Origin: the human T2T-CHM13v2.0 reference genome, Homo sapiens | Strand: one strand, 5' to 3' | NCBI RefSeq assembly: GCF_009914755.1 | Contig: NC_060935.1 | DNA: 64,000 bases | Notes under the pieces: generated by a model | Databases searched by the model: none | What the model saw: the letters and a program-made list of their open reading frames with translations, nothing else | What the model was told of the DNA's origin: nothing | Translations under genes and position numbers: made by a program | In this document: positions 7,330 through 60,899 of the stretch, piece after piece | Layout of the letters: the number at the start of each line of letters is the position of its first letter | Position numbering within the stretch: position 1 is the first letter of the stretch

Positions 7330-8610
7330 CATACTGTTTACATTATCTTATCTGTTTTAGGTTTACATGTTATTTTTAATGTTCCTGTACATTTAAAAAA
7401 TTGAAACCAAGAATCTTGACTGGCTCTGAAACTTAATTGGGAAAAATGTAAAGCACTTTAGTGGAATTTTTCCCATGATCTGTAGAATAGTTTTTAAACA
7501 GATGGTTCATATGGACAAAGCAATGAAAATGCAGAAATTAAAAGCAGATCCTTAAGAACAATATCCGAGTTCTCAGAAATCCTATAGATGATGTCAGGAC
7601 GAGATGTAAAGCAGTCGTTTCTTTTGCTGTCAAGGTTTTAAGAGAACAGAAATTTATTAGGTGAACCTCCACCGGAGGAAGGATAAAGCCTGTGGGTAGG
7701 AGTTAACTATTTATTTCAAACTCCAGTCCACTTCAACAATTTGAAAATTTTCCCGCTCCTAGGACAATTCCATCCAGGTGCCAATAGGAGATACTACTAT
7801 TGTGATGCAAATAGGTATTCTACTAGAAGTAGGAGCACGTAAGCAGAGTGAGGATGACTTGAAAAATCGTCCCACCTTCCCAGCTATCGAGTGGGGGCAG
7901 GGGGAAGAAACACCTCCAGGCTGGATCATTGAAGCTGAGGGGTGGGAGAGCGACGGGACAATTTTTCAACGTGGAATTCAAATGCATTCGGTGGGGAAGT
8001 GTGAAGTAAAATCTAAACGAACGCTAGACAGTAGTATCTTCCATCTACGCTTCAAAATACTCAGACTTTAGGGAAACTTAACGTTGGTTTTTCTCCCAGA
8101 GAATTGTAGGGAGTGGGTGGAGGGGACACTGTTAGGGGAGGTATATTGGGAGTCAGATCCTTTTGTGGAGCGAGGGACCCCGAAGTGTCACCAAGGGCTA
8201 GCCGAAACCAGGGGCCCAAGAGGGGACAGGGCTAACACCCCAGCCAAGGCCGGAGCGCAAGCGCGGGGCTGCAGCGCGGGGAGCCCTGGAGCCCAGTGCG
8301 GGCGGACGGGTGGGGCAGGAGGGCAAAGGGGCGAAGGGGCGGGGTGGCGCTGGGTGGGAGCGCGGCGGCGGGGAGGAGGGTCTGGGAGCCCGGGTGCGAT
8401 TTGCAAGCGCTCTGAGCCTGCGTCCGCCGAGGGGGAGGGTTTCCCCAGCCCGGCCGGAGTTGCGGCTGTGCGCTGCTTCTGGCTCACAACGCCGACGACT
8501 GTCAAGAGAGTTGGGGAGTGGAACTGCCGGAAGTGTCTGCGCGCCGTGAGAGAAACTTTCCTGCTCCGGCCGCGGCCCGGAGCCTCGCCGCCCCCGCGTT
8601 CCGAACGACG

Positions 8611-8700
8611 ATGCGTCCAGATGACAACAACCTGAGGGGACTCGCGCCTCGGCCCGCCGCCCGCGCCTGCGCTCGCCTAGCCTCGGGGGAGGAAGACTGA
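8611..8700 (+). other. Candidate uORF1, 29 aa ([29 protein letters not shown])
   Basis: acgATGc at 8611 (A at -3), stop TGA 8698-8700, upstream of main ATG; requires a TSS upstream of 8611. Confidence 0.5.
8621..8635 (+). other. Candidate uORF2 (MTTT*)
   Basis: ATG ACA ACA ACC TGA in weak context, overlapping uORF1 in another frame. Confidence 0.4.
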
Positions 8701-8876
8701 GCCCGGCGCAGGCGGCGCGGCGCTCGGGGCCCGTTTCCTCCGCGCAATCAGTCCCCTCGCGTCCCGGCGCCTTCCCCGCGATCGCGCGACCCCAGCGCCC
8801 GCCGCGGCCGCCGGCTGCCCCCGCCCTGACCTCCGGCCCGGACGTGTCCGCGGCCGCCGCTGGCAGCGCCTGTGCC

Positions 8877-9030
8877 ATGGGGCTGCCCACTCTGGAGTTC
8901 AGCGATTCCTACTTGGACAGCCCAGATTTCAGGGAGCGCTTGCAGTGTCACGAGATTGAGCTGGAGCGAACCAACAAGTTCATCAAGGAGCTCATTAAGG
9001 ACGGCTCTCTGCTCATTGGGGCGTTGAGGA
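8877..9030 (+). CDS. ARHGAP42: Rho GTPase-activating protein 42 (GRAF3), first coding exon (start of BAR domain); 51 codons + 1 nt, phase-1 intron follows
   Basis: Strong Kozak gccATGG at 8877; translation [51 protein letters not shown] matches the recognised GRAF/oligophrenin-family N-terminus of ARHGAP42; canonical donor GA|GTAAGT at 9030/9031; lies within a CpG island. Confidence 0.96.
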
Positions 9031-11197
9031 GTAAGTAGGGCTGGCGGGGGAGTGGACACCCGCATCTGGAGAGTCCCCGCGGGGTGCGGGTCCGAAGGGT
9101 GGGTTGGAGGAGTCGGAGCTTCTTTTGTTTGAATGGATTTGGGGACAAAAGCTGAAGAGCTCCCCTGCTGGTGGCCAACAAAGTTTGTTCTTGAGGTGTT
9201 CTTTACTTACTCACATGTCTACAGGGATGGGGAAAGTTCTCTACAGGGCACTGGAATATATCCTGAGGAAAGTCGTTCAAAGTCATCTCGTTGTGTAATG
9301 CTCCTAGGAAGATGTTGGGGACTTTAATTTTTTTTTTTTAATTTATTGTGTCTATTAATAGTTTGAACTAAAAAAGCCCTTAAGGGGGGAATCAAGAGTT
9401 TGTCTTAAAGATAAAATTAGGCTAGTTTAGTGATATTGAAAGAAAATTATTAATGTCTCTCATACGTCAGTGGCTCTTCATTGGACACAGTCATTGAGTT
9501 GGCTTTTTAAAAAGCATACATTTGCAGTTTTGCCATTTTGTAAGATAATGGAAGACAGCAAGGCACCAGTGCATTTTAACTCTGCAAGTTTTCTGTGCGT
9601 CTTAGTTTTGGTTTGCATTGTGTGGGTGTTGGGTGTGTCATTGGGATGAAAGTTAAGGGGTTAAAGGCCAATCAGAACTTTTGATGATCTGTAGAATATA
9701 AAGACTGTTATAGTCTATAATATAGGGCTTCTTCCACCTCCTTTCCCATACACCTCTTGATCAAATTTTCCTTCCTCCTTTTATCCTCTGGATCTTAGCT
9801 TTCAATTCCTAAGACCTAAGAGTATCTGAAACTGAAGAGTTTCTCTTACAGAGAATTGAGCACAATTACATGATATGGCTTGTTACCTTTCCCAGGAGGT
9901 ATTTGCATCTTTTAAAAAATTTATTTTTATTTATTTATGTATTTATTTATTTTCCATCTTCAAAGGAGCCTGTGAAAAGTATTTGCATCTTAATAGAGGC
10001 TTCTGGATGTTTTAGCTACTGAAATGAAGCCGTGGAATCTCTGGTCACTTAAAGCTGGGTGAGTGAGGTACTTTCAAAAGGTAGAGAGACCTTTGGGTGA
10101 TCTAGTTACCCCCAGGACATATATGGGGGCATCATCTTTGTATAACAACATGATAGGGATGTGTGCGCCTAAAACTGAGACAATACTAGTATCGGATCTA
10201 TATTTTGAAACATGTATTAACAGTAAGGAGAGAGCTTAGCAAGATGTCTTGAAATTAATGTGCTCCAAAATATCTTTTAATCATCCCAAATGTTAAAACA
10301 TTTACTTAACCACTTGTGTTACTTAACCAAGGTAAAGATAATATATTTTATGCCCATATTCACTTAATTTCTGAATTTGAGGCTACTACTAATAATGGTA
10401 TTTACTGTGATTTGTGAAAAATATAGTTTGTCTGCAATTCTTGCCACCCTACATAAACACTAATGTGAACTGTCCTTCCTCTGGCTTGCAAATCCTGGTT
10501 AAAGTCTCGCGGGACTAACCTCTTTGCATCTAAGAGAGCATGATGCCTCTTCAAAAAGAGCTGCATCTCAGAGTGTCAAATGCCAAGCCAGTTCTTGTTG
10601 GAGGTGCCAGATATTCTACATTTTTCTCCCCGCTCTGCTTGAGATAAACTTTAGTGTTTCAGAAGGTCAAAATACTTACATACCTGTGATAAATGCTCTG
10701 ACATGTACATTATATTACGAGTGACATTACATACTTTATTATGATGGTTGAATCTAGCTTTGTAAAAGTCAGGTGATTCCCATCATTATAGTTTTGTTCT
10801 TCCATTCATAAGTGAAGAAATCTTGGGAGCGTAGGCTCTTTGAAGATATAGGCCCTGCATCATTAATTTGGCTTATGCACTTAATTATACAACCTGCTAT
10901 CTTTCTAGGATTCTTAAGTTTGTGGTGAGAGTGTATTACTTTAACTAACGTTTGATTATTACTTCTTTCATTGTGAAAAGGAAAAGATTTTATTCCTTGG
11001 TAAAAGGATTCCTAACAGCAGCTGCCAAATGGGAGGGATTTTGGAGCAAAGGAACCCTTGAAGTCACACTGTAGCACTGATTTTTTTCGTACCAAGCCAC
11101 CTTTTGTCCCTTAGGAAGGATGCTCTGAGGCTGGGCTGCAGCTGCTTGGATAGGAGGAGTGTGTCAGAAAGGATTTGAAGCCTGCTTGGTTCTATCA

Positions 11198-11329
11198 CTG
11201 GCTGCCCCTGCCCTGACCACTAGCCCAGACATGTCCCCTGGCATAGCTGGCAGTGCTTGTACCATGGGGCTGACCATTCCACTGTGGGAGCGTCCCTGTA
11301 CCATAAGTCTGCCCACTCCACTAAGGGAG
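11198..11329 (+). pseudogene. Decayed partial copy of ARHGAP42 exon 1 (5'UTR end + first codons), with internal 39-bp tandem duplication
   Basis: 11198-11279 aligns without gaps to 8811-8892 at 64/82 identity; all 10 source CpGs are mutated; 11258-11290 and 11297-11329 match at 26/33. Confidence 0.85.
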
Positions 11330-11773
11330 TCCTTCTTCCCCCAGTCTGTCTTTTCTGTTTTTCTTTCCTGCCTGGGGAGGACTTCACCTTCCCTAACTTT
11401 ATATAGACTATTTCAATAGATGTATCCATTACCCGTTTCAGTTTTTTTAGCACGGCACTGTTATTTTTATTAATAATTAATGCATTCTTAATGTAACCTT
11501 ATTAAGCAATTATCAGTGTATTTCTAAGCATATTATATTATTTTTATCCCTGTTGTTAACTTTTCCCGTGAGAGTTTTGACTTGCACTCTCTTAGGTAAT
11601 ACACGCCTGACTATTCCAATAAGAGTCACACATGCTCCTTGCTCTGTGGTTCAAGTTGTAATTTCTTCAGTAGACTATTTGGAAGGCTCCTTTAAATTGA
11701 ACTAGAAGATTTCAATTGAACTAGATAATTTCAATTTTAAATAATACATATAACATACTTAACACGTGTTTAA

Positions 11774-12097
<324 letters not shown>

Positions 12098-29914: not shown

Positions 29915-30789
<875 letters not shown>

Positions 30790-54698: not shown

Positions 54699-55813
<1,115 letters not shown>

Positions 55814-56142
55814 TAAGACAATTTTTTAATTGTGAAAAGGTTTGTCCCTAGTGGCTTCAAAATGTCAACCTGTTGGAAGAACAATCCCAGTTGAACCAAT
55901 GTGACTTTCTTCTCATACTCTACTTAACTCACAGAAACAGATGTGGTGGCAGAACAAGCTGAAGCTGTCAGTTTTTTAATCTTTTCAGGTTTCTGAGAGT
56001 GGGACACACATGTGTGCTATGATTCCAAAGATGGAACACCTTTCATTTAATGTGTTAAGTTCGTCAGTATACAGATGTAGTTGGTTTACACTGATAACAG
56101 ATGCAGAAGTGAAACTGAAATGCACAGTAAGGACAATCTGAA

Positions 56143-56185
56143 AACAACTACAACAACAAAACAACAACAACAACAACAACAACAA
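56143..56185. repeat. (CAA)n imperfect microsatellite
   Basis: Run of aac units with two interruptions. Confidence 0.9.
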
Positions 56186-56555
56186 AACCCTGTGTTTGGG
56201 GTTTGCAGGAGCCTGGGTCTACTCAGCTTAGTTACCAACTGGATGTGAAAGTTCCCACCAGACCCCTTCAGGATCCATATCCTCACTGTGTGGTGAAGAG
56301 TTGGACTTGACAAAACCATTTCTCATTTCCCATCTTGCTCTGATTTTTTCCAGTTTTCTCTAGTACATATTCTTTTATGATTGCTTTTATTTTAAGCATG
56401 TGGAGTTTAATAGTGAGCCAATGCCATCAGATAAATTCTGCCTCCTTTCCTAGTTTAGTTTCTCTTTGTGAGTGGAATCCCCCTTATGTTTCTGAACTAT
56501 TTAAGAGGCTTGCTTTGTGATGGAAGAGGAAATGCCAAAAGTGACTCCAATAATG

Positions 56556-56711
56556 TCACTTTAAGTCATTTTCTGTTTCTTTACATGATTTCTAGTTTTA
56601 CAGGGGCTTTAAAAAAGAATAGGAAATAGGAATAGGAAATCACTTTAAGTCATCTTCTTTCTTTGCATGATTTCTAGTTTTACAGGGCTTTTTAAAAAGG
56701 AATAAGAAATA
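56556..56711. repeat. Local tandem duplication, period ~84 bp
   Basis: tcactttaagtcat...catgatttctagttttacaggg...aata.gaaata occurs at 56556 and 56640. Confidence 0.9.
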
Positions 56712-56742
56712 TGAAAAAACTGGGGAAAGGTTGGTGATTTGA

Positions 56743-57070
<328 letters not shown>

Positions 57071-58189
57071 GCAGACTTGTACTTTTTAAGTGTTTCATAT
57101 CCTATTTGAGCGGCTATCTTTGTTTACCTAGGTAATGTAGTCATATGTACTGTGTTCAGAAATCAAGAGAGTAAAAGGAAGCAATAGAAAGGAAAGGATA
57201 GTTTTCAGAGCTGAGATATATTTTTCAAAAAAATCATGGCCCAGCTGTTTCTACTGGGGACACCTAGAGTAGGGCAATGGGAGATGATAATGTGGTTAGC
57301 CCAAGGTTGTTTAGGTGGTTTTAGTTAGTTTGTTTTGAAACCTGAAGCCTCAGTGGGCTTGAGCAACAAGGAATAGAGATAGAGAATTCTCATCATTTTG
57401 TGAAGCTTTGTGAGCTTTTTCATTCTTTTACATCTCCGTTTTCCACAGTAGCCTCAGGATTTTCTTTATATGGATGCATGCCGGGGGCTTCCCGATGATC
57501 ACTTGAGGATGGCTCTGGTGAGACAGAGAACTTGGTGGAAATCCCCCTGAGCTGCCTTCCTGGAATAAACCTGGGTTGAGAAATCTTGGGGCTCTGGGCA
57601 CACAGAAAATGCCTGGTGGACAAATCATGGGACTGCTACCACCATCTTATCAAACGTGATTAATGGGAACTGGAATGTAATGGAGAGACAGTGTCACATC
57701 CCTGCAGGGTGTCTCTGTGTTTTTTTCCTTCCCAAACACTGTCTTTCTCTCTTTCTTTTAATGGATTTTCAAACAATACTCTGGTAGCACCTTTTGTGCT
57801 ACAGGCATCTGCCACTTGCAGCAGATTTAAAGGATTTAGACCTGGAGGGTAAAGAGTAATTTCTCCGAAAGGATCTTGACGTGTTACTGTTACAATAAGC
57901 TAAGCAGTTTGTCTTTTTTTTAAATTAAAAATATGTTTGTTTGGCTTACATAAACGATAGTGTCTTCTGTTAAGAAAGAAAAAAAGGACAGGAGAAGCAC
58001 ATTATTCTGGATTTTTCCTTACCTTTGATCAAGGCTTTACATATAACTTCCTGACTCCAGGAAACACCAGGGATAGAAGAACAAGGTCAGCAACACTTTG
58101 AGCAAGCACTATGCTAAATCTAGAATTTGGGGCATCCTATAGGACAGTGGAACCAGTTTAGTTAATGAGTCAGTGGCCTGTGAAAAGAA

Positions 58190-58410
58190 GGAAAAAAGGA
58201 AGAGATAACTATTCTATGTTAAAAGGGATTAAGGGATCTCAGAGACATAAGGAAATATAATGAGTAGACATTGTTAGGATTCTTATTTGTGAACAAGTGG
58301 AAAACAGATTTAAAAATAATTGGGGAAATGTGAATGTGAACTAGCTTTTGATAGTATTAAGGAATTACTATTAATTTTGTTATAAATGATAATAACCTTA
58401 TGGTTATATA
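58190..58410 (+). mobile_element. Old L1M (L1MC4/L1ME-like) 3' fragment
   Basis: aattggggaaatgtgaatgtgaactag...gatagtattaaggaattactattaatttt. Confidence 0.55.
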
Positions 58411-60899
58411 AGCATCTCTGCTTCCATTCCCACATGAATACAAATGAAGCAAGTCCCTTAATCTCACTTAGGATTAGTATTTGCAGCTACAAAGAAGATG
58501 CTTATTTTGGAAGGTTTTGTAGGGTTGACGTGGAGGTAGAATGAGACAATGCTAGCGTAGAATCCTGTGAGTGATTTTTATGTTTCGTTGTTGTTGTTGT
58601 TGTTTTTGGCTATCATTATCACTATATGAGGTTCATGTATCATATTAATTCTAACTCTAGCTATCCTTTAAAACTTTCATGTGTTTCCATTTCTTTTCCT
58701 ATTGGTGATCATACTGGTGTCCCACCTTTCAACGTTCGCAGGTATTCCAGATGGCCTGCTCCATGAGATAGAGGTGTCTTGGTTCATCTTGGCCTTGCTC
58801 ACCACTTACTCTTACCACAAGGTCCTGTGTCAGGCCCAGCAATTGCCCTTGAATAGATGCTGACTTATTTGTTGAATGAATGAACTCTCCCTGTTAAACT
58901 TAAAGCAGAAAAAAGGAACTTTATTGCAGCTTCTTATTGGCAGTAAATGCTAACAGATTTATATTGATAAGCTGCTGGGAGAGGACTTAAAAGGGGCCTA
59001 CATCTCACATTAGTGTTTTTAGTTGCTTGCCTATTGCTCATGATCAATCCCCTCTCATTCCTCTTCCTCAGAAAGTAGGCACGTGGTCATTTCTTTTTTT
59101 CATCAAGATTGCAAAGTCTTTATACAGTGAGGAAGAAATTGTATTAGAATCCTTACGTTTTGCACATAGTAGGCAGTTGCTAAATGTCAAAAGAAGACTT
59201 TATTTCTGTACCCAAAATATTTTTAGATATTTTGATGGGAACTGGGAGAGCTGGGAGAATATTCAGTGTAAGAAATGATTTTTTTCTGTGAGTCAAGAAA
59301 ATATCGTAGAAATACTGTGATAGCCTTTAATTTATAGCTGTCAAATACTGACTTGGTTAAAATTATTACAATGCTTCAGAGGCAATTATTTACATATGTT
59401 TTCTCTCTTCATCTTTAATATAGTAACGTGGAAGCGGGAAGCTGGGAGAAAGTCATTTTTTAAATGTGGATTGAGAGTTCATATGTGGAAAGGGCTGCAA
59501 TTCATTGAAATAACCAGGAGAAATTGGATGCTGATATTTCAGAGCTGCAGTCTGTTTGGAACCTCACAGTACCGCAGTCTAACAAAGAAGTGCCAGCTTT
59601 GTTTTAGATTTAAAAGAGTATCATCTAAAGGATCTGACATTACAGACAAAAGAGAGGTAACTCACTAATTCCATCAGATGTATATTTTTTCTCATTTTGC
59701 AATTCCATCAAAGCAGTATTGCTCTTGGCCATTTACCTGTTTTTGAATAATGAGAGGTATCATGATTTTCATCAGTGAGGGTAATATATGTAAAACTTGC
59801 AAACAATTTATTCCTCTAAATAAAGTAAAAAACTATGTTGCTAGAGAAGTACTATTGCTGCTGACTACTAAAGGTAGTTAAGAAGTCAAAGTGTTTTATT
59901 ATAATACAAATAAAGTGAACATGTAGAAATCTGTTTATTATTACGTTTCAAGTTTGAATATTTTGTTTTCTTTTTAAGAAGAAGCAGGGCAAAACAAACT
60001 GTGCCCGTTGCATTCCTTGCCAAGGTCAATGCTCCATATTTTGTCTGACTGTTTAATTTAATAGCATTCAAGCACAGAAGCAATCAGGAGGCCACTCCTA
60101 TTGGTAAATCCATGCTTATAAAGAAAGCATGTATTTCAGAACTTAGGAAAAAAGCTGTTTGTTAAGCCCAGACCTAGTTTGAGATCTTTTTGAAAAGTGC
60201 TTATAATTTTCCAGAATTCTAGGATTAACTCAAGGAAATGCACAACAGAAATATGTAGATTTGACAGTGGCTTTTTTCTTCTGTTCAAGTTATCTTAGAG
60301 TCTTTTTTTTTGTTTTTGTTTTTGTTTTAAATGAAGCAGTTTTGAGATTCATTAACTGGTTATCTTTTGTCTGAGTTTTACCAAAGTGATCAAAAAATAA
60401 GGAACTATTGACTTTTGGTAATTAAAATACTCTTGGATTTTTTTTTTTTAGTTAAAGTTCAGGACCATTCACTTGGTTCTTAAACAATCTTGTTTTAACC
60501 TGAAGAACTCTTGATTTGAAACTTTGAAATCCTGAGAAACATTTTTTCTATGACTCTCAAAAATAACTTCAGATTGCAATTTGTTCTAAAGAGGATAAAG
60601 TAGATATACCATGCTTGTTTTCTTTTCCTTAATTGAGTTTCATTTATGTGATTAACTTAGATAAAAATACTCTAATTTGATTTACTGAAGCAGTCAGGAT
60701 GAAATATTTTGCATAGTGAAGTGTGCTAAATCTTTAAAACTATTTCTAGAGTTTTTAAAGAAAGAATTTTAAAATGTAATGTACGAAGGTATAATTCTGT
60801 GTATCTATACTTTGTTTCTCCCTCCCCTCTGCATCTAATAAGCCCCTCTTTTCTTGTTCCTTTTGTAAACATGAGTTGCTTATGGCTTGTGTACTGAAA

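What the first reader, a model, noticed from the sequence alone, without database searches (positions are those of the whole stretch)
11198..11279. Fossil copy of ARHGAP42's own start-codon region inside intron 1, with complete CpG erosion
Seen: 11198-11279 (ctggctgcccctgccctgaccactagcccagacatgtcccctggcatagctggcagtgcttgtaccATGgggctgaccattc) aligns with no gaps to 8811-8892 (ccggctgcccccgccctgacctccggcccggacgtgtccgcggccgccgctggcagcgcctgtgccATGgggctgcccactc) in the same orientation, offset 2387 nt, 64/82 identical. All 10 CpGs of the source are destroyed (3 TG, 3 CA, 1 TA, 3 other) and account for 11 of the 18 mismatches. Established: methylated CpGs decay to TG/CA, while CpG islands are protected. 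Inference: a short piece of exon 1 was copied locally (templated insertion during break repair, from DNA or nascent RNA), landed outside the island, was methylated and decayed. It is not a repeat family I recognise, and no poly(A) or TSD is visible. It gives an internal control for island protection and could be a partial target for promoter-antisense RNA.
Basis: partly seen in the sequence, partly recalled or inferred. Interest (0 to 1): 0.8.

Follow-up and report, generated by a model that had tools for sequence, protein, structure and literature searches.

The report
Decayed exon-1 copy inside intron 1
A piece of about 120-140 bases from the first exon of ARHGAP42, start codon included, was copied long ago into the gene's first intron 2.4 kb downstream and has since decayed like ordinary unprotected DNA, so it is real but most likely a harmless repair or replication scar.

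Summary
Window 11198-11279 matches 8811-8892 on the same strand, without gaps, at 64 of 82 bases. None of 3 x 1000 dinucleotide shuffles came near the score (46 against a maximum of 19). All 10 source CpGs are lost.

New here:
- A second partial copy (11285-11318, matching source 8861-8892) lies directly behind the first and keeps one CpG.
- Homology stops sharply on both sides.
- All 15 changes between strong and weak bases run GC to AT, none the other way.
- A 27-base core occurs at only 7 places in the genome: the source, this copy, and five spliced ARHGAP42 retrocopies on contigs 2, 14 and 22. It is therefore not a dispersed repeat.
- The retrocopies keep 7-8 of the same 10 CpGs and are less diverged, so the intron copy is older.
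- There is no target-site duplication, poly(A), Rfam match or unusual RNA fold.

Best reading: an ancient, short, local templated duplication made by template switching during repair or replication, followed by neutral decay outside the CpG island. This is a known kind of event. The mechanism and the age are inferred, because no other mammalian genomes were on hand. Interest is low.

The parts
8811..8892 (+). Source segment in ARHGAP42 exon 1: 66 bases of 5'UTR, the ATG (8877-8879) and codons 2-6. GC 0.80, 10 CpGs, inside the CpG island.
   Evidence: The hub annotation puts the coding start at 8877. From the ATG it reads into a BAR_3 domain (Pfam E 2.9e-13) and matches a paralogue's exon 1.
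11198..11279 (+). First copy in intron 1: 64 of 82 identical to the source, GC 0.62, no CpG.
11285..11318 (+). Second partial copy of source 8861-8892: 27 of 34 columns identical with one 2-base gap. It keeps the CpG at 11291-11292. It shares with the first copy an A at source position 8874 and a CCACT tail that the source lacks.
   Evidence: E 9e-4 in the 551 x 551 comparison, 0.10 against the whole window.. (gapped score 19.5; 0 of 2000 shuffles reach it, maximum 17)..
11319..11344 (+). Tail behind the second copy. It may be the start of a third unit of a tandem array with a period of about 38 bases, or a weak continuation along the source to about 8914. This is not significant by itself.
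   Evidence: alignments only. Tandem Repeats Finder did not report this array.
8200..9100 (.). CpG island around the promoter and exon 1 (GC 0.58-0.77, CpG observed/expected 0.6-1.23 in 200-base bins). The copy lies about 2.1 kb beyond its downstream edge.

Best explanation
One old germline event copied about 82-87 bases of ARHGAP42 exon 1 (8811 to about 8892-8897) into intron 1, 2.4 kb downstream, in the same orientation, and left the source intact. I take it to be a short, local, DNA-templated insertion: a strand being extended at a break or a stalled fork in the intron switched to the nearby exon-1 template, copied a short stretch and returned. The last 32-37 bases were then duplicated in tandem, either soon afterwards or as a stutter in the same event. 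The insert landed outside the CpG island, so it lost its CpGs (mostly to TG or CA) and drifted from GC 0.80 to 0.62. It is now a neutral relic with no function.

Shown: the homology, its sharp borders, its direction, its uniqueness in the genome, the second partial copy, the decay pattern, and that it is older than the retrocopies.

Inferred: the template-switch mechanism, a DNA rather than an RNA template, methylation as the cause of the CpG loss, neutrality, and an age of very roughly 50-100 million years.
For: Homology well beyond chance.

Sharp borders: 20-27% identity on the diagonal outside the match. Neither flank resembles 8600-9300 more than shuffles do (left flank 129-712 of 1000 shuffles reach the observed score, right flank 424-697 of 1000).

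Direction: the source runs on into conserved BAR-domain coding sequence shared with a paralogue, with the exon ending at the same place. 15 of the 18 changes are GC to AT, none the reverse, and 12 are C>T or G>A.

Not a repeat family: the 27-base core with up to 3 mismatches hits 7 places genome-wide, against 0 for the reversed control. These are the source, the copy and five retrocopies. The copy used as a query finds only itself. Window 10300-11780 is single-copy at that search's sensitivity. Within the window both segments have exactly one partner.

Not L1-type retroposition: no flanking direct repeat of 6 or more bases, no poly(A), and neither end of the copy is an exon end. The genuine retrocopies start at 8584, end exactly at 9030 and continue into exon 2.

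Second partial copy. It keeps four source states that the first copy lost (8867, 8870, 8886, 8890) and shares only one substitution with it (8874), so the two units separated early.

Neutral look: CpG observed/expected 0.07, no Rfam family near threshold, RNA fold z-score +0.57.

Older than the retrocopies: 0 of 10 CpGs kept against 8 of 10 (Fisher p 0.0007), and 18 of 82 mismatches against 4 of 82 (p 0.002).

The size fits templated insertions seen at breaks, 73-414 bp (PMC5110952, text read).
Against: No junction detail can be read: microhomology, filler bases or a deletion at the target would need an empty site in another species, and none was on hand.

The shared A at 8874 and the shared CCACT tail of the two units favour a later tandem duplication over a stutter in the same event, so the second copy is weak support for template switching.

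Three of the 10 CpG losses (8849, 8851, 8858) are not deamination-type. They sit in a poorly matching patch at 8849-8858 that may hide a small rearrangement.

The genome searches would miss family members below about 84% identity: the search with the source did not return the intron copy itself. A very old repeat is therefore excluded by the coding continuity argument, not by search alone.

Neutrality rests on sequence only. No conservation, methylation or chromatin data were available.
Confidence: 0.6

Rival explanations
1. Same short patch, but templated by RNA. A fragment of the nascent sense ARHGAP42 transcript, or of a promoter R-loop, was reverse-transcribed and used to patch a break in intron 1, as in a class 2 templated sequence insertion or an endonuclease-independent event.
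For: The donor is a transcribed exon of the same gene in sense orientation. There is no target-site duplication or poly(A). The review PMC5110952 (read) reports that experimental insertions were enriched for transcribed donors and were reduced more than three-fold by reverse-transcriptase inhibitors.
Against: The copy lies wholly inside exon 1, so no splice junction can mark an RNA origin. Its ends match neither the annotated transcription start (8486), the start of the retrocopies (8584) nor the exon end (9030). The donor lies only 2.4 kb away on the same strand, which is what local DNA template switching predicts, whereas the insertions in that review came from distant regions.
Confidence: 0.15
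2. It is the remnant of a larger local duplication of the promoter and exon-1 region. The rest was deleted or decayed, leaving only this stretch recognisable.
For: Same orientation and close distance. The source upstream of 8811 is extremely CpG-rich (34 CpGs in 8600-8799) and would decay fastest.
Against: Identity on the diagonal falls to the random level of 20-27% at once on both sides. On the 3' side the source is CpG-poor coding sequence (6 CpGs in 8893-9030) that should have decayed no faster than the core. Gapped searches of both flanks against 8600-9300 are no better than shuffles. Sensitive blastn of 8600-9150 against the window found no further collinear piece.
Confidence: 0.12
3. It is a functional element kept by selection, for instance a pairing site in the pre-mRNA for ARHGAP42-AS1, whose exon covers 8831-9153 on the minus strand, or an intronic regulatory element.
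For: The predicted duplex of the antisense stretch with the intron copy is -92.0 kcal/mol, against -41.0 +/- 4.9 for 500 shuffles (0 of 500 as low). The perfect source duplex is -161.8.
Against: That pairing follows from 78% identity and is not independent evidence. The longest exact runs are only 11, 9, 9 and 8 bases. The decay is one-directional and looks neutral. The hub table lists no RefSeq functional element at this place. There is no RNA family or structure signal.
Confidence: 0.04
4. It is a chance similarity of GC-rich sequence, or both segments belong to a dispersed repeat family.
For: The 19-base core with up to 1 mismatch hits 23 places genome-wide, against 1 for the reversed control. 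18 of these are neither the source, the copy nor a retrocopy. They were not examined further and look like CTGCCC-type GC-rich sequence.
Against: Score 46 against a shuffle maximum of 19. None of those 18 places returns in the 27-base search, which finds only the 7 related places. The match runs unbroken from the 5'UTR into ancient coding sequence.
Confidence: 0.01

Closest known systems
Class 2 templated sequence insertions (Onozawa and Aplan, Front Chem 2016, PMC5110952; first half of the text read)
   Same: A short stretch is copied from elsewhere and the donor is left intact. The size lies within the reported 73-414 bp. The donor is transcribed. There is no target-site duplication, poly(A) signal or poly(A) tract.
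   Different: Those insertions are defined as coming from distant regions, whereas this donor is 2.4 kb away in the same gene. They are recent polymorphisms or experimental events with readable junctions. This one is fixed in this assembly, old, and its junctions are unreadable.
Templated insertions from microhomology-mediated break-induced replication or fork stalling and template switching (Osia et al., NAR 2021, PMC8421209; abstract and outline only)
   Same: The template is nearby, the template is copied and kept, and more than one copying round is possible (the second partial copy).
   Different: Microhomology at the switch points could not be assessed. The second copy may be a later tandem duplication. 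From recall, the insertions detected by that method are typically shorter and their templates closer.
Short-range template switching in replication (Loytynoja and Goldman, Genome Res 2017, PMC5453318; search listing only)
   Same: A local polymerase template switch is the source of the copied sequence.
   Different: Those events are described as short inverted copies that appear as mutation clusters. This is a direct copy of 82 bases or more, 2.4 kb from its template.
Spliced ARHGAP42 retrocopies on contigs 2 (two), 14 (two) and 22 of this assembly
   Same: They are copies of the same exon-1 sequence placed outside the promoter CpG island.
   Different: They start at 8584, end exactly at the exon-1 end (9030) and go on to exon 2. 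They are 89-94% identical over the 140-151 matched bases of the query 8780-8930 and keep 7-8 of the 10 CpGs that the intron copy lost. They arose by retroposition and were later spread by duplication; the intron copy did not arise this way.

Membership tests
Class 2 templated sequence insertion | The inserted stretch is templated from another genomic place and the donor is intact | tested here: met
   The source exon is intact and coding.
Class 2 templated sequence insertion | No target-site duplication of 5 bp or more, no poly(A) tract | tested here: met
   no direct repeat of 6-9 bases between 11158-11197 and 11280-11400, and no A or T run of 6 or more. Age could have erased such marks.
Class 2 templated sequence insertion | End-joining marks at the junctions (microhomology, microdeletion, untemplated bases) | not testable with these tools
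   Needs the empty site from another species or a reconstructed ancestor. No other vertebrate genome was on hand.
Class 2 templated sequence insertion | [quoted passage not shown] | tested here: not met
   The donor is 2387 bases upstream in the same gene.
L1-mediated retrocopy (processed pseudogene or class 1 insertion) | Target-site duplication, poly(A) tail, and a transcript 3' end or spliced exons | tested here: not met
   The copy is internal to exon 1. Compare the true retrocopies.
Dispersed repeat or transposable element family | Many related copies across the genome | tested here: not met
   7 places, all explained; only itself; the flanks are single-copy; one partner within the window. 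Sensitivity is limited to roughly 84% identity or more. No Dfam or RepeatMasker was available.
Replicative template switch (fork stalling and template switching, or microhomology-mediated break-induced replication) | The template is close by on the same chromosome and is copied, not moved | tested here: met
   Offset 2387 on the same strand; the source is retained.
Replicative template switch (fork stalling and template switching, or microhomology-mediated break-induced replication) | Microhomology at the switch points; several switches in one event | tested here: inconclusive
   The junctions have decayed. The second partial copy could be a second switch, but the derived states shared by the two units favour a later tandem duplication.
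Methylation-driven CpG decay of non-island DNA | CpG loss mainly to TG or CA, low CpG observed/expected, GC-to-AT drift | tested here: met
   7 of 10 CpGs went to TG, CA or TA. Observed/expected 0.07. 15 of 18 changes are GC to AT.
Methylation-driven CpG decay of non-island DNA | The site is methylated in the germline while the island is not | not testable with these tools
   No methylation data were on hand.

The most novel reading that the evidence does not exclude
The intron copy is kept in use as a second pairing site for the promoter antisense RNA ARHGAP42-AS1 within the ARHGAP42 pre-mRNA. The antisense transcript would then sense or tether the nascent sense transcript at a site that, unlike the exon, is removed by splicing. 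The only support is a predicted duplex of -92 kcal/mol against -41 +/- 5 for shuffles, which any 78% copy would give.
Probability: 0.04. Interest if true: 0.6.

Novelty: new member of a known kind. Interest (0 to 1): 0.2.

Why it matters
Its value is small but real. The same about 80 bases now sit in three settings in one genome: inside a promoter CpG island (10 CpGs), in an ordinary intron (0 of 10 kept), and in pericentromeric retrocopies (7-8 of 10 kept). This is a tidy worked example of island protection against CpG decay, although with only 10 sites.

It also adds one old, fixed example of a short local templated duplication whose donor is a gene's own start-codon region.

In practice, probes, guides or antisense oligonucleotides aimed at the ARHGAP42 start region have a 78% look-alike in intron 1 and look-alikes of about 90% on three other chromosomes.

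It does not open a new question.

Tried and rejected
1. Extra copied pieces. blastn showed two weak collinear matches between 9100-9141 and the left flank 11147-11177, which would have made a multi-piece insertion. With gap-tolerant scoring, 129 of 1000 shuffles reach the score. With stricter gaps, 712 of 1000 do. Rejected. The right flank and two control stretches were equally unremarkable.

2. A profile search of the genome with the DNA alignment A1 was not accepted, because only protein alignments are taken. I used an IUPAC pattern instead.

3. A genome search with the intron copy found only itself and did not recover the source. This shows the sensitivity limit of that tool, not uniqueness as such.

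4. Tandem Repeats Finder did not report the internal array with a period of about 38 bases. It rests on pairwise alignments only.

5. An Rfam scan of 10800-11700 gave two hits far below threshold (19-20 bits against cut-offs of 50-60) and outside the copy. An RNA fold of 11190-11345 was no more stable than shuffles (z +0.57).

7. Literature: ARHGAP42 with 'templated insertion' gave 0 papers. ARHGAP42 with 'intron 1', 'exon 1' and 'duplicat' gave 0 papers. The listing for ARHGAP42 with 'pseudogene' showed nothing relevant, and so did the listing for rs604723 and 'first intron'. So I found no printed description of this copy in the searchable library. Subscription papers and supplements were not searched.

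8. Dating by orthologues was not possible, because no other vertebrate genome is held.

Full report
**Observation.** I read both stretches and compared them base by base.
- Window 11198-11279 aligns without gaps to 8811-8892 on the same strand, offset 2387, with 64 of 82 bases identical.
- The source has 10 CpGs and none survives in the copy: 3 became TG, 3 CA, 1 TA, and 3 something else (CC, CT, AG).
- 11 of the 18 mismatches fall in CpG positions.
- On the same diagonal, identity per 100 bases is 27, 25, 69, 20 and 20 for 8600-9099. The match therefore has sharp borders on both sides.

**Chance.**
- The best ungapped +1/-1 score between 8700-9050 and 11100-11450 is 46.
- I made 1000 dinucleotide-preserving shuffles each of the copy region, of the 140-base insert alone and of the source. 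Their means were 9.8, 9.4 and 9.9 and their maxima 17, 19 and 16.
- blastn of 8600-9150 against the whole 64-kb window gives E 9e-14 for this pair. Nothing else scores better than E 0.01 apart from a GC-rich self-inverted match.
- An all-against-all blastn of the window gave 2156 non-self matches, nearly all from interspersed repeats. Only 3 pairs have sides with no more than 2 partners each, and this pair is one of them.

**A second partial copy.**
- Directly behind the first copy, 11285-11318 aligns to source 8861-8892: 27 of 34 columns match, with one 2-base gap.
- The gapped score of 11280-11345 against 8780-8940 is 19.5. None of 2000 shuffles reaches it (maximum 17).
- This unit keeps four source states that the first copy has lost (8867, 8870, 8886, 8890). 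One of them is a CpG, now at 11291-11292. "Complete CpG erosion" therefore holds for the 82 bases only.
- The two units share one substitution against the source (A at 8874) and a CCACT tail that the source lacks. Parsimony therefore favours a tandem duplication of about 37-39 bases inside the insert, early in its life. A stutter during the original copying is not excluded.
- A weak continuation, either a third unit or source bases up to about 8914, is seen in alignments only. Tandem Repeats Finder did not report the array.

**Direction.**
- From the ATG the source translates into a BAR_3 domain start (Pfam E 2.9e-13).
- From the ATG on it is homologous to the first coding exon of a paralogue on contig 23, whose exon ends at the same place. 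Upstream of the ATG the two show no similarity. From recall, that paralogue is OPHN1.
- The copied stretch runs unbroken from the 5'UTR through the ATG into these codons, so the exon is the donor.
- Of the 18 changes from source to copy, 15 are GC to AT and none AT to GC. GC falls from 0.80 to 0.62, in an intron whose flanks have GC 0.48 and 0.30.

**Not a repeat family.**
- A 27-base core, written with three degenerate positions to fit both copies and allowing up to 3 mismatches, occurs at 7 places in the 3.1-Gb assembly. The reversed control gives 0. The 7 are the source, the intron copy and five places on contigs 2 (two), 14 (two) and 22.
- A 19-base core with up to 1 mismatch gave 23 places against 1 for the control. 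18 of them are unrelated GC-rich sites that do not reappear in the 27-base search. I did not examine them further.
- The intron copy used as a query returns only itself, and 10300-11780 is single-copy.
- These DNA searches have limited reach, because the source query did not return the 78% intron copy. Exclusion of a very old repeat therefore leans on the coding-continuity argument as well.

**The five other copies.**
- They align to 8584-9030 at 86.6-87.6% identity and stop exactly at the exon-1 end.
- 91 bases further on they match ARHGAP42 exon 2, which in the gene lies about 82 kb downstream at contig 11:100779514-100779625, with 95% identity.
- They are therefore spliced retrocopies that were later spread by duplication.
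- They make a useful comparison. Within the 82 bases they keep 7-8 of the 10 CpGs and differ from the source at 2 (contigs 14 and 22) or 9 (contig 2) of 62 non-CpG sites. The intron copy keeps 0 of 10 and differs at 7 of 62.
- Over 8811-9030 they differ at 6 or 13 of 188 non-CpG sites and keep 11-12 of 16 CpGs. Over 8584-9030 they keep 25-34 of 58 CpGs.
- Fisher tests of the intron copy against the contig-22 copy give p 0.0007 for CpGs kept (0/10 against 8/10) and p 0.002 for all mismatches (18/82 against 4/82). The intron copy is the older event.
- At 8832 the intron copy and three retrocopies share A where the exon has T, so that difference probably arose in the exon.

**Age (inference).**
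- 7 of 62 non-CpG differences give a Jukes-Cantor distance of 0.12, with a 95% range of 0.05-0.26.
- With a recalled neutral rate near 1e-9 per site per year, this is roughly 60 million years if both lineages drift, and about twice that if only the copy does. The error is wide.
- With a recalled excess of about ten-fold in CpG transition rate, few or none of 10 CpGs would be expected to survive that long. Total loss therefore needs no special explanation.
- No other vertebrate genome was available, so I could not date the event by an empty site.

**Setting.**
- In 200-base bins the CpG island spans about 8200-9100 (GC 0.58-0.77, CpG observed/expected 0.6-1.23).
- The bin holding the copy has GC 0.56 and observed/expected 0.07.
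- No direct repeat of 6-9 bases links the 40 bases left of the insert to the 120 bases after it, and there is no A or T run of 6 or more.
- The ends of the copy match neither the annotated transcription start (8486), the start of the retrocopies (8584), the antisense exon border (8831) nor the exon end (9030).
- Rfam gives nothing near threshold, and the RNA fold is no better than shuffles.

**Mechanism.**
- The anatomy fits a templated insertion rather than retroposition or a large duplication: a short piece, same strand, donor kept, donor only 2.4 kb away, sharp borders, and no retrotransposition marks.
- The review of templated sequence insertions (PMC5110952) describes class 2 events with no target-site duplication or poly(A). 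It gives sizes of 73-414 bp in the experimental system and reports enrichment for transcribed donors, but the donors there are distant.
- Because this donor is so close, I favour a local DNA template switch at a break or stalled fork. This is the kind of event attributed to microhomology-mediated break-induced replication (PMC8421209, abstract only).
- An RNA-templated patch from the nascent transcript cannot be told apart here, since the copy holds no splice junction.
- A larger duplication with lost flanks is unlikely. The CpG-poor coding sequence just 3' of the match shows no residual similarity.

**Function.**
- I see no sign of function.
- The antisense RNA stretch complementary to 8831-8892 is predicted to pair with the intron copy at -92.0 kcal/mol, against -41.0 +/- 4.9 for 500 shuffles and -161.8 for the exon itself. 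This follows from the sequence identity and is not independent evidence.
- The copied ATG opens a 51-codon frame of no known meaning.

**Verdict.** It belongs to a known kind of event and is probably inert. I found no printed description of it in the searches run.

Noticed in passing
L009:5694-6132 (-), L010:5718-6156 (-), L011:3814-4252 (+), L012:5725-6172 (-), L013:3825-4269 (+); these are G000 contig 22 near 16.13 Mb, contig 14 near 13.13 and 13.89 Mb, and contig 2 near 131.77 and 130.44 Mb: There are five spliced ARHGAP42 retrocopies. Homology starts at window 8584, ends exactly at the exon-1 end (9030) and continues into exon 2. The three on contigs 14 and 22 are 99% alike in the 594 bases downstream; the two on contig 2 are 91-92% identical to them there. 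They keep 25-34 of the source's 58 CpGs, which is more than I would expect for methylated DNA at their non-CpG divergence.
   Followed up: partly
L009:5603-5693 (-), and the same stretch in L010-L013: In the retrocopies, 91 bases lie between the end of exon 1 and the exon-2 match. This stretch did not match contig 11 among the candidates scored. Only 40 of 850 candidates were scored, because an Alu in the query swamped the list. It could be an unannotated or alternative exon, or an insertion.
   Followed up: no
window 8832: The exon has T here, but the intron copy and three retrocopies have A and the other two retrocopies have G. The 5'UTR itself has probably changed at this site since the copies were made.
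   Followed up: partly
window 56556-56715: A tandem duplication of an 82-84-base unit, 1.9 copies, 87% matches. It lies inside the long exon (55690-59656) of other ARHGAP42 transcripts.
   Followed up: partly
window 30119-30211 and 30467-30559: A direct pair of 93 bases, 91% identical and 348 bases apart, with no other partner in the window. It is not a tandem array by Tandem Repeats Finder. It may be another short local duplication.
   Followed up: no
L008 (G000 contig 23:66866343-66866518, minus strand): The first coding exon of a paralogue is alignable to ARHGAP42 exon 1 from the ATG to the same exon end, followed by GTAAGT. Upstream of the ATG there is no similarity.
   Followed up: partly
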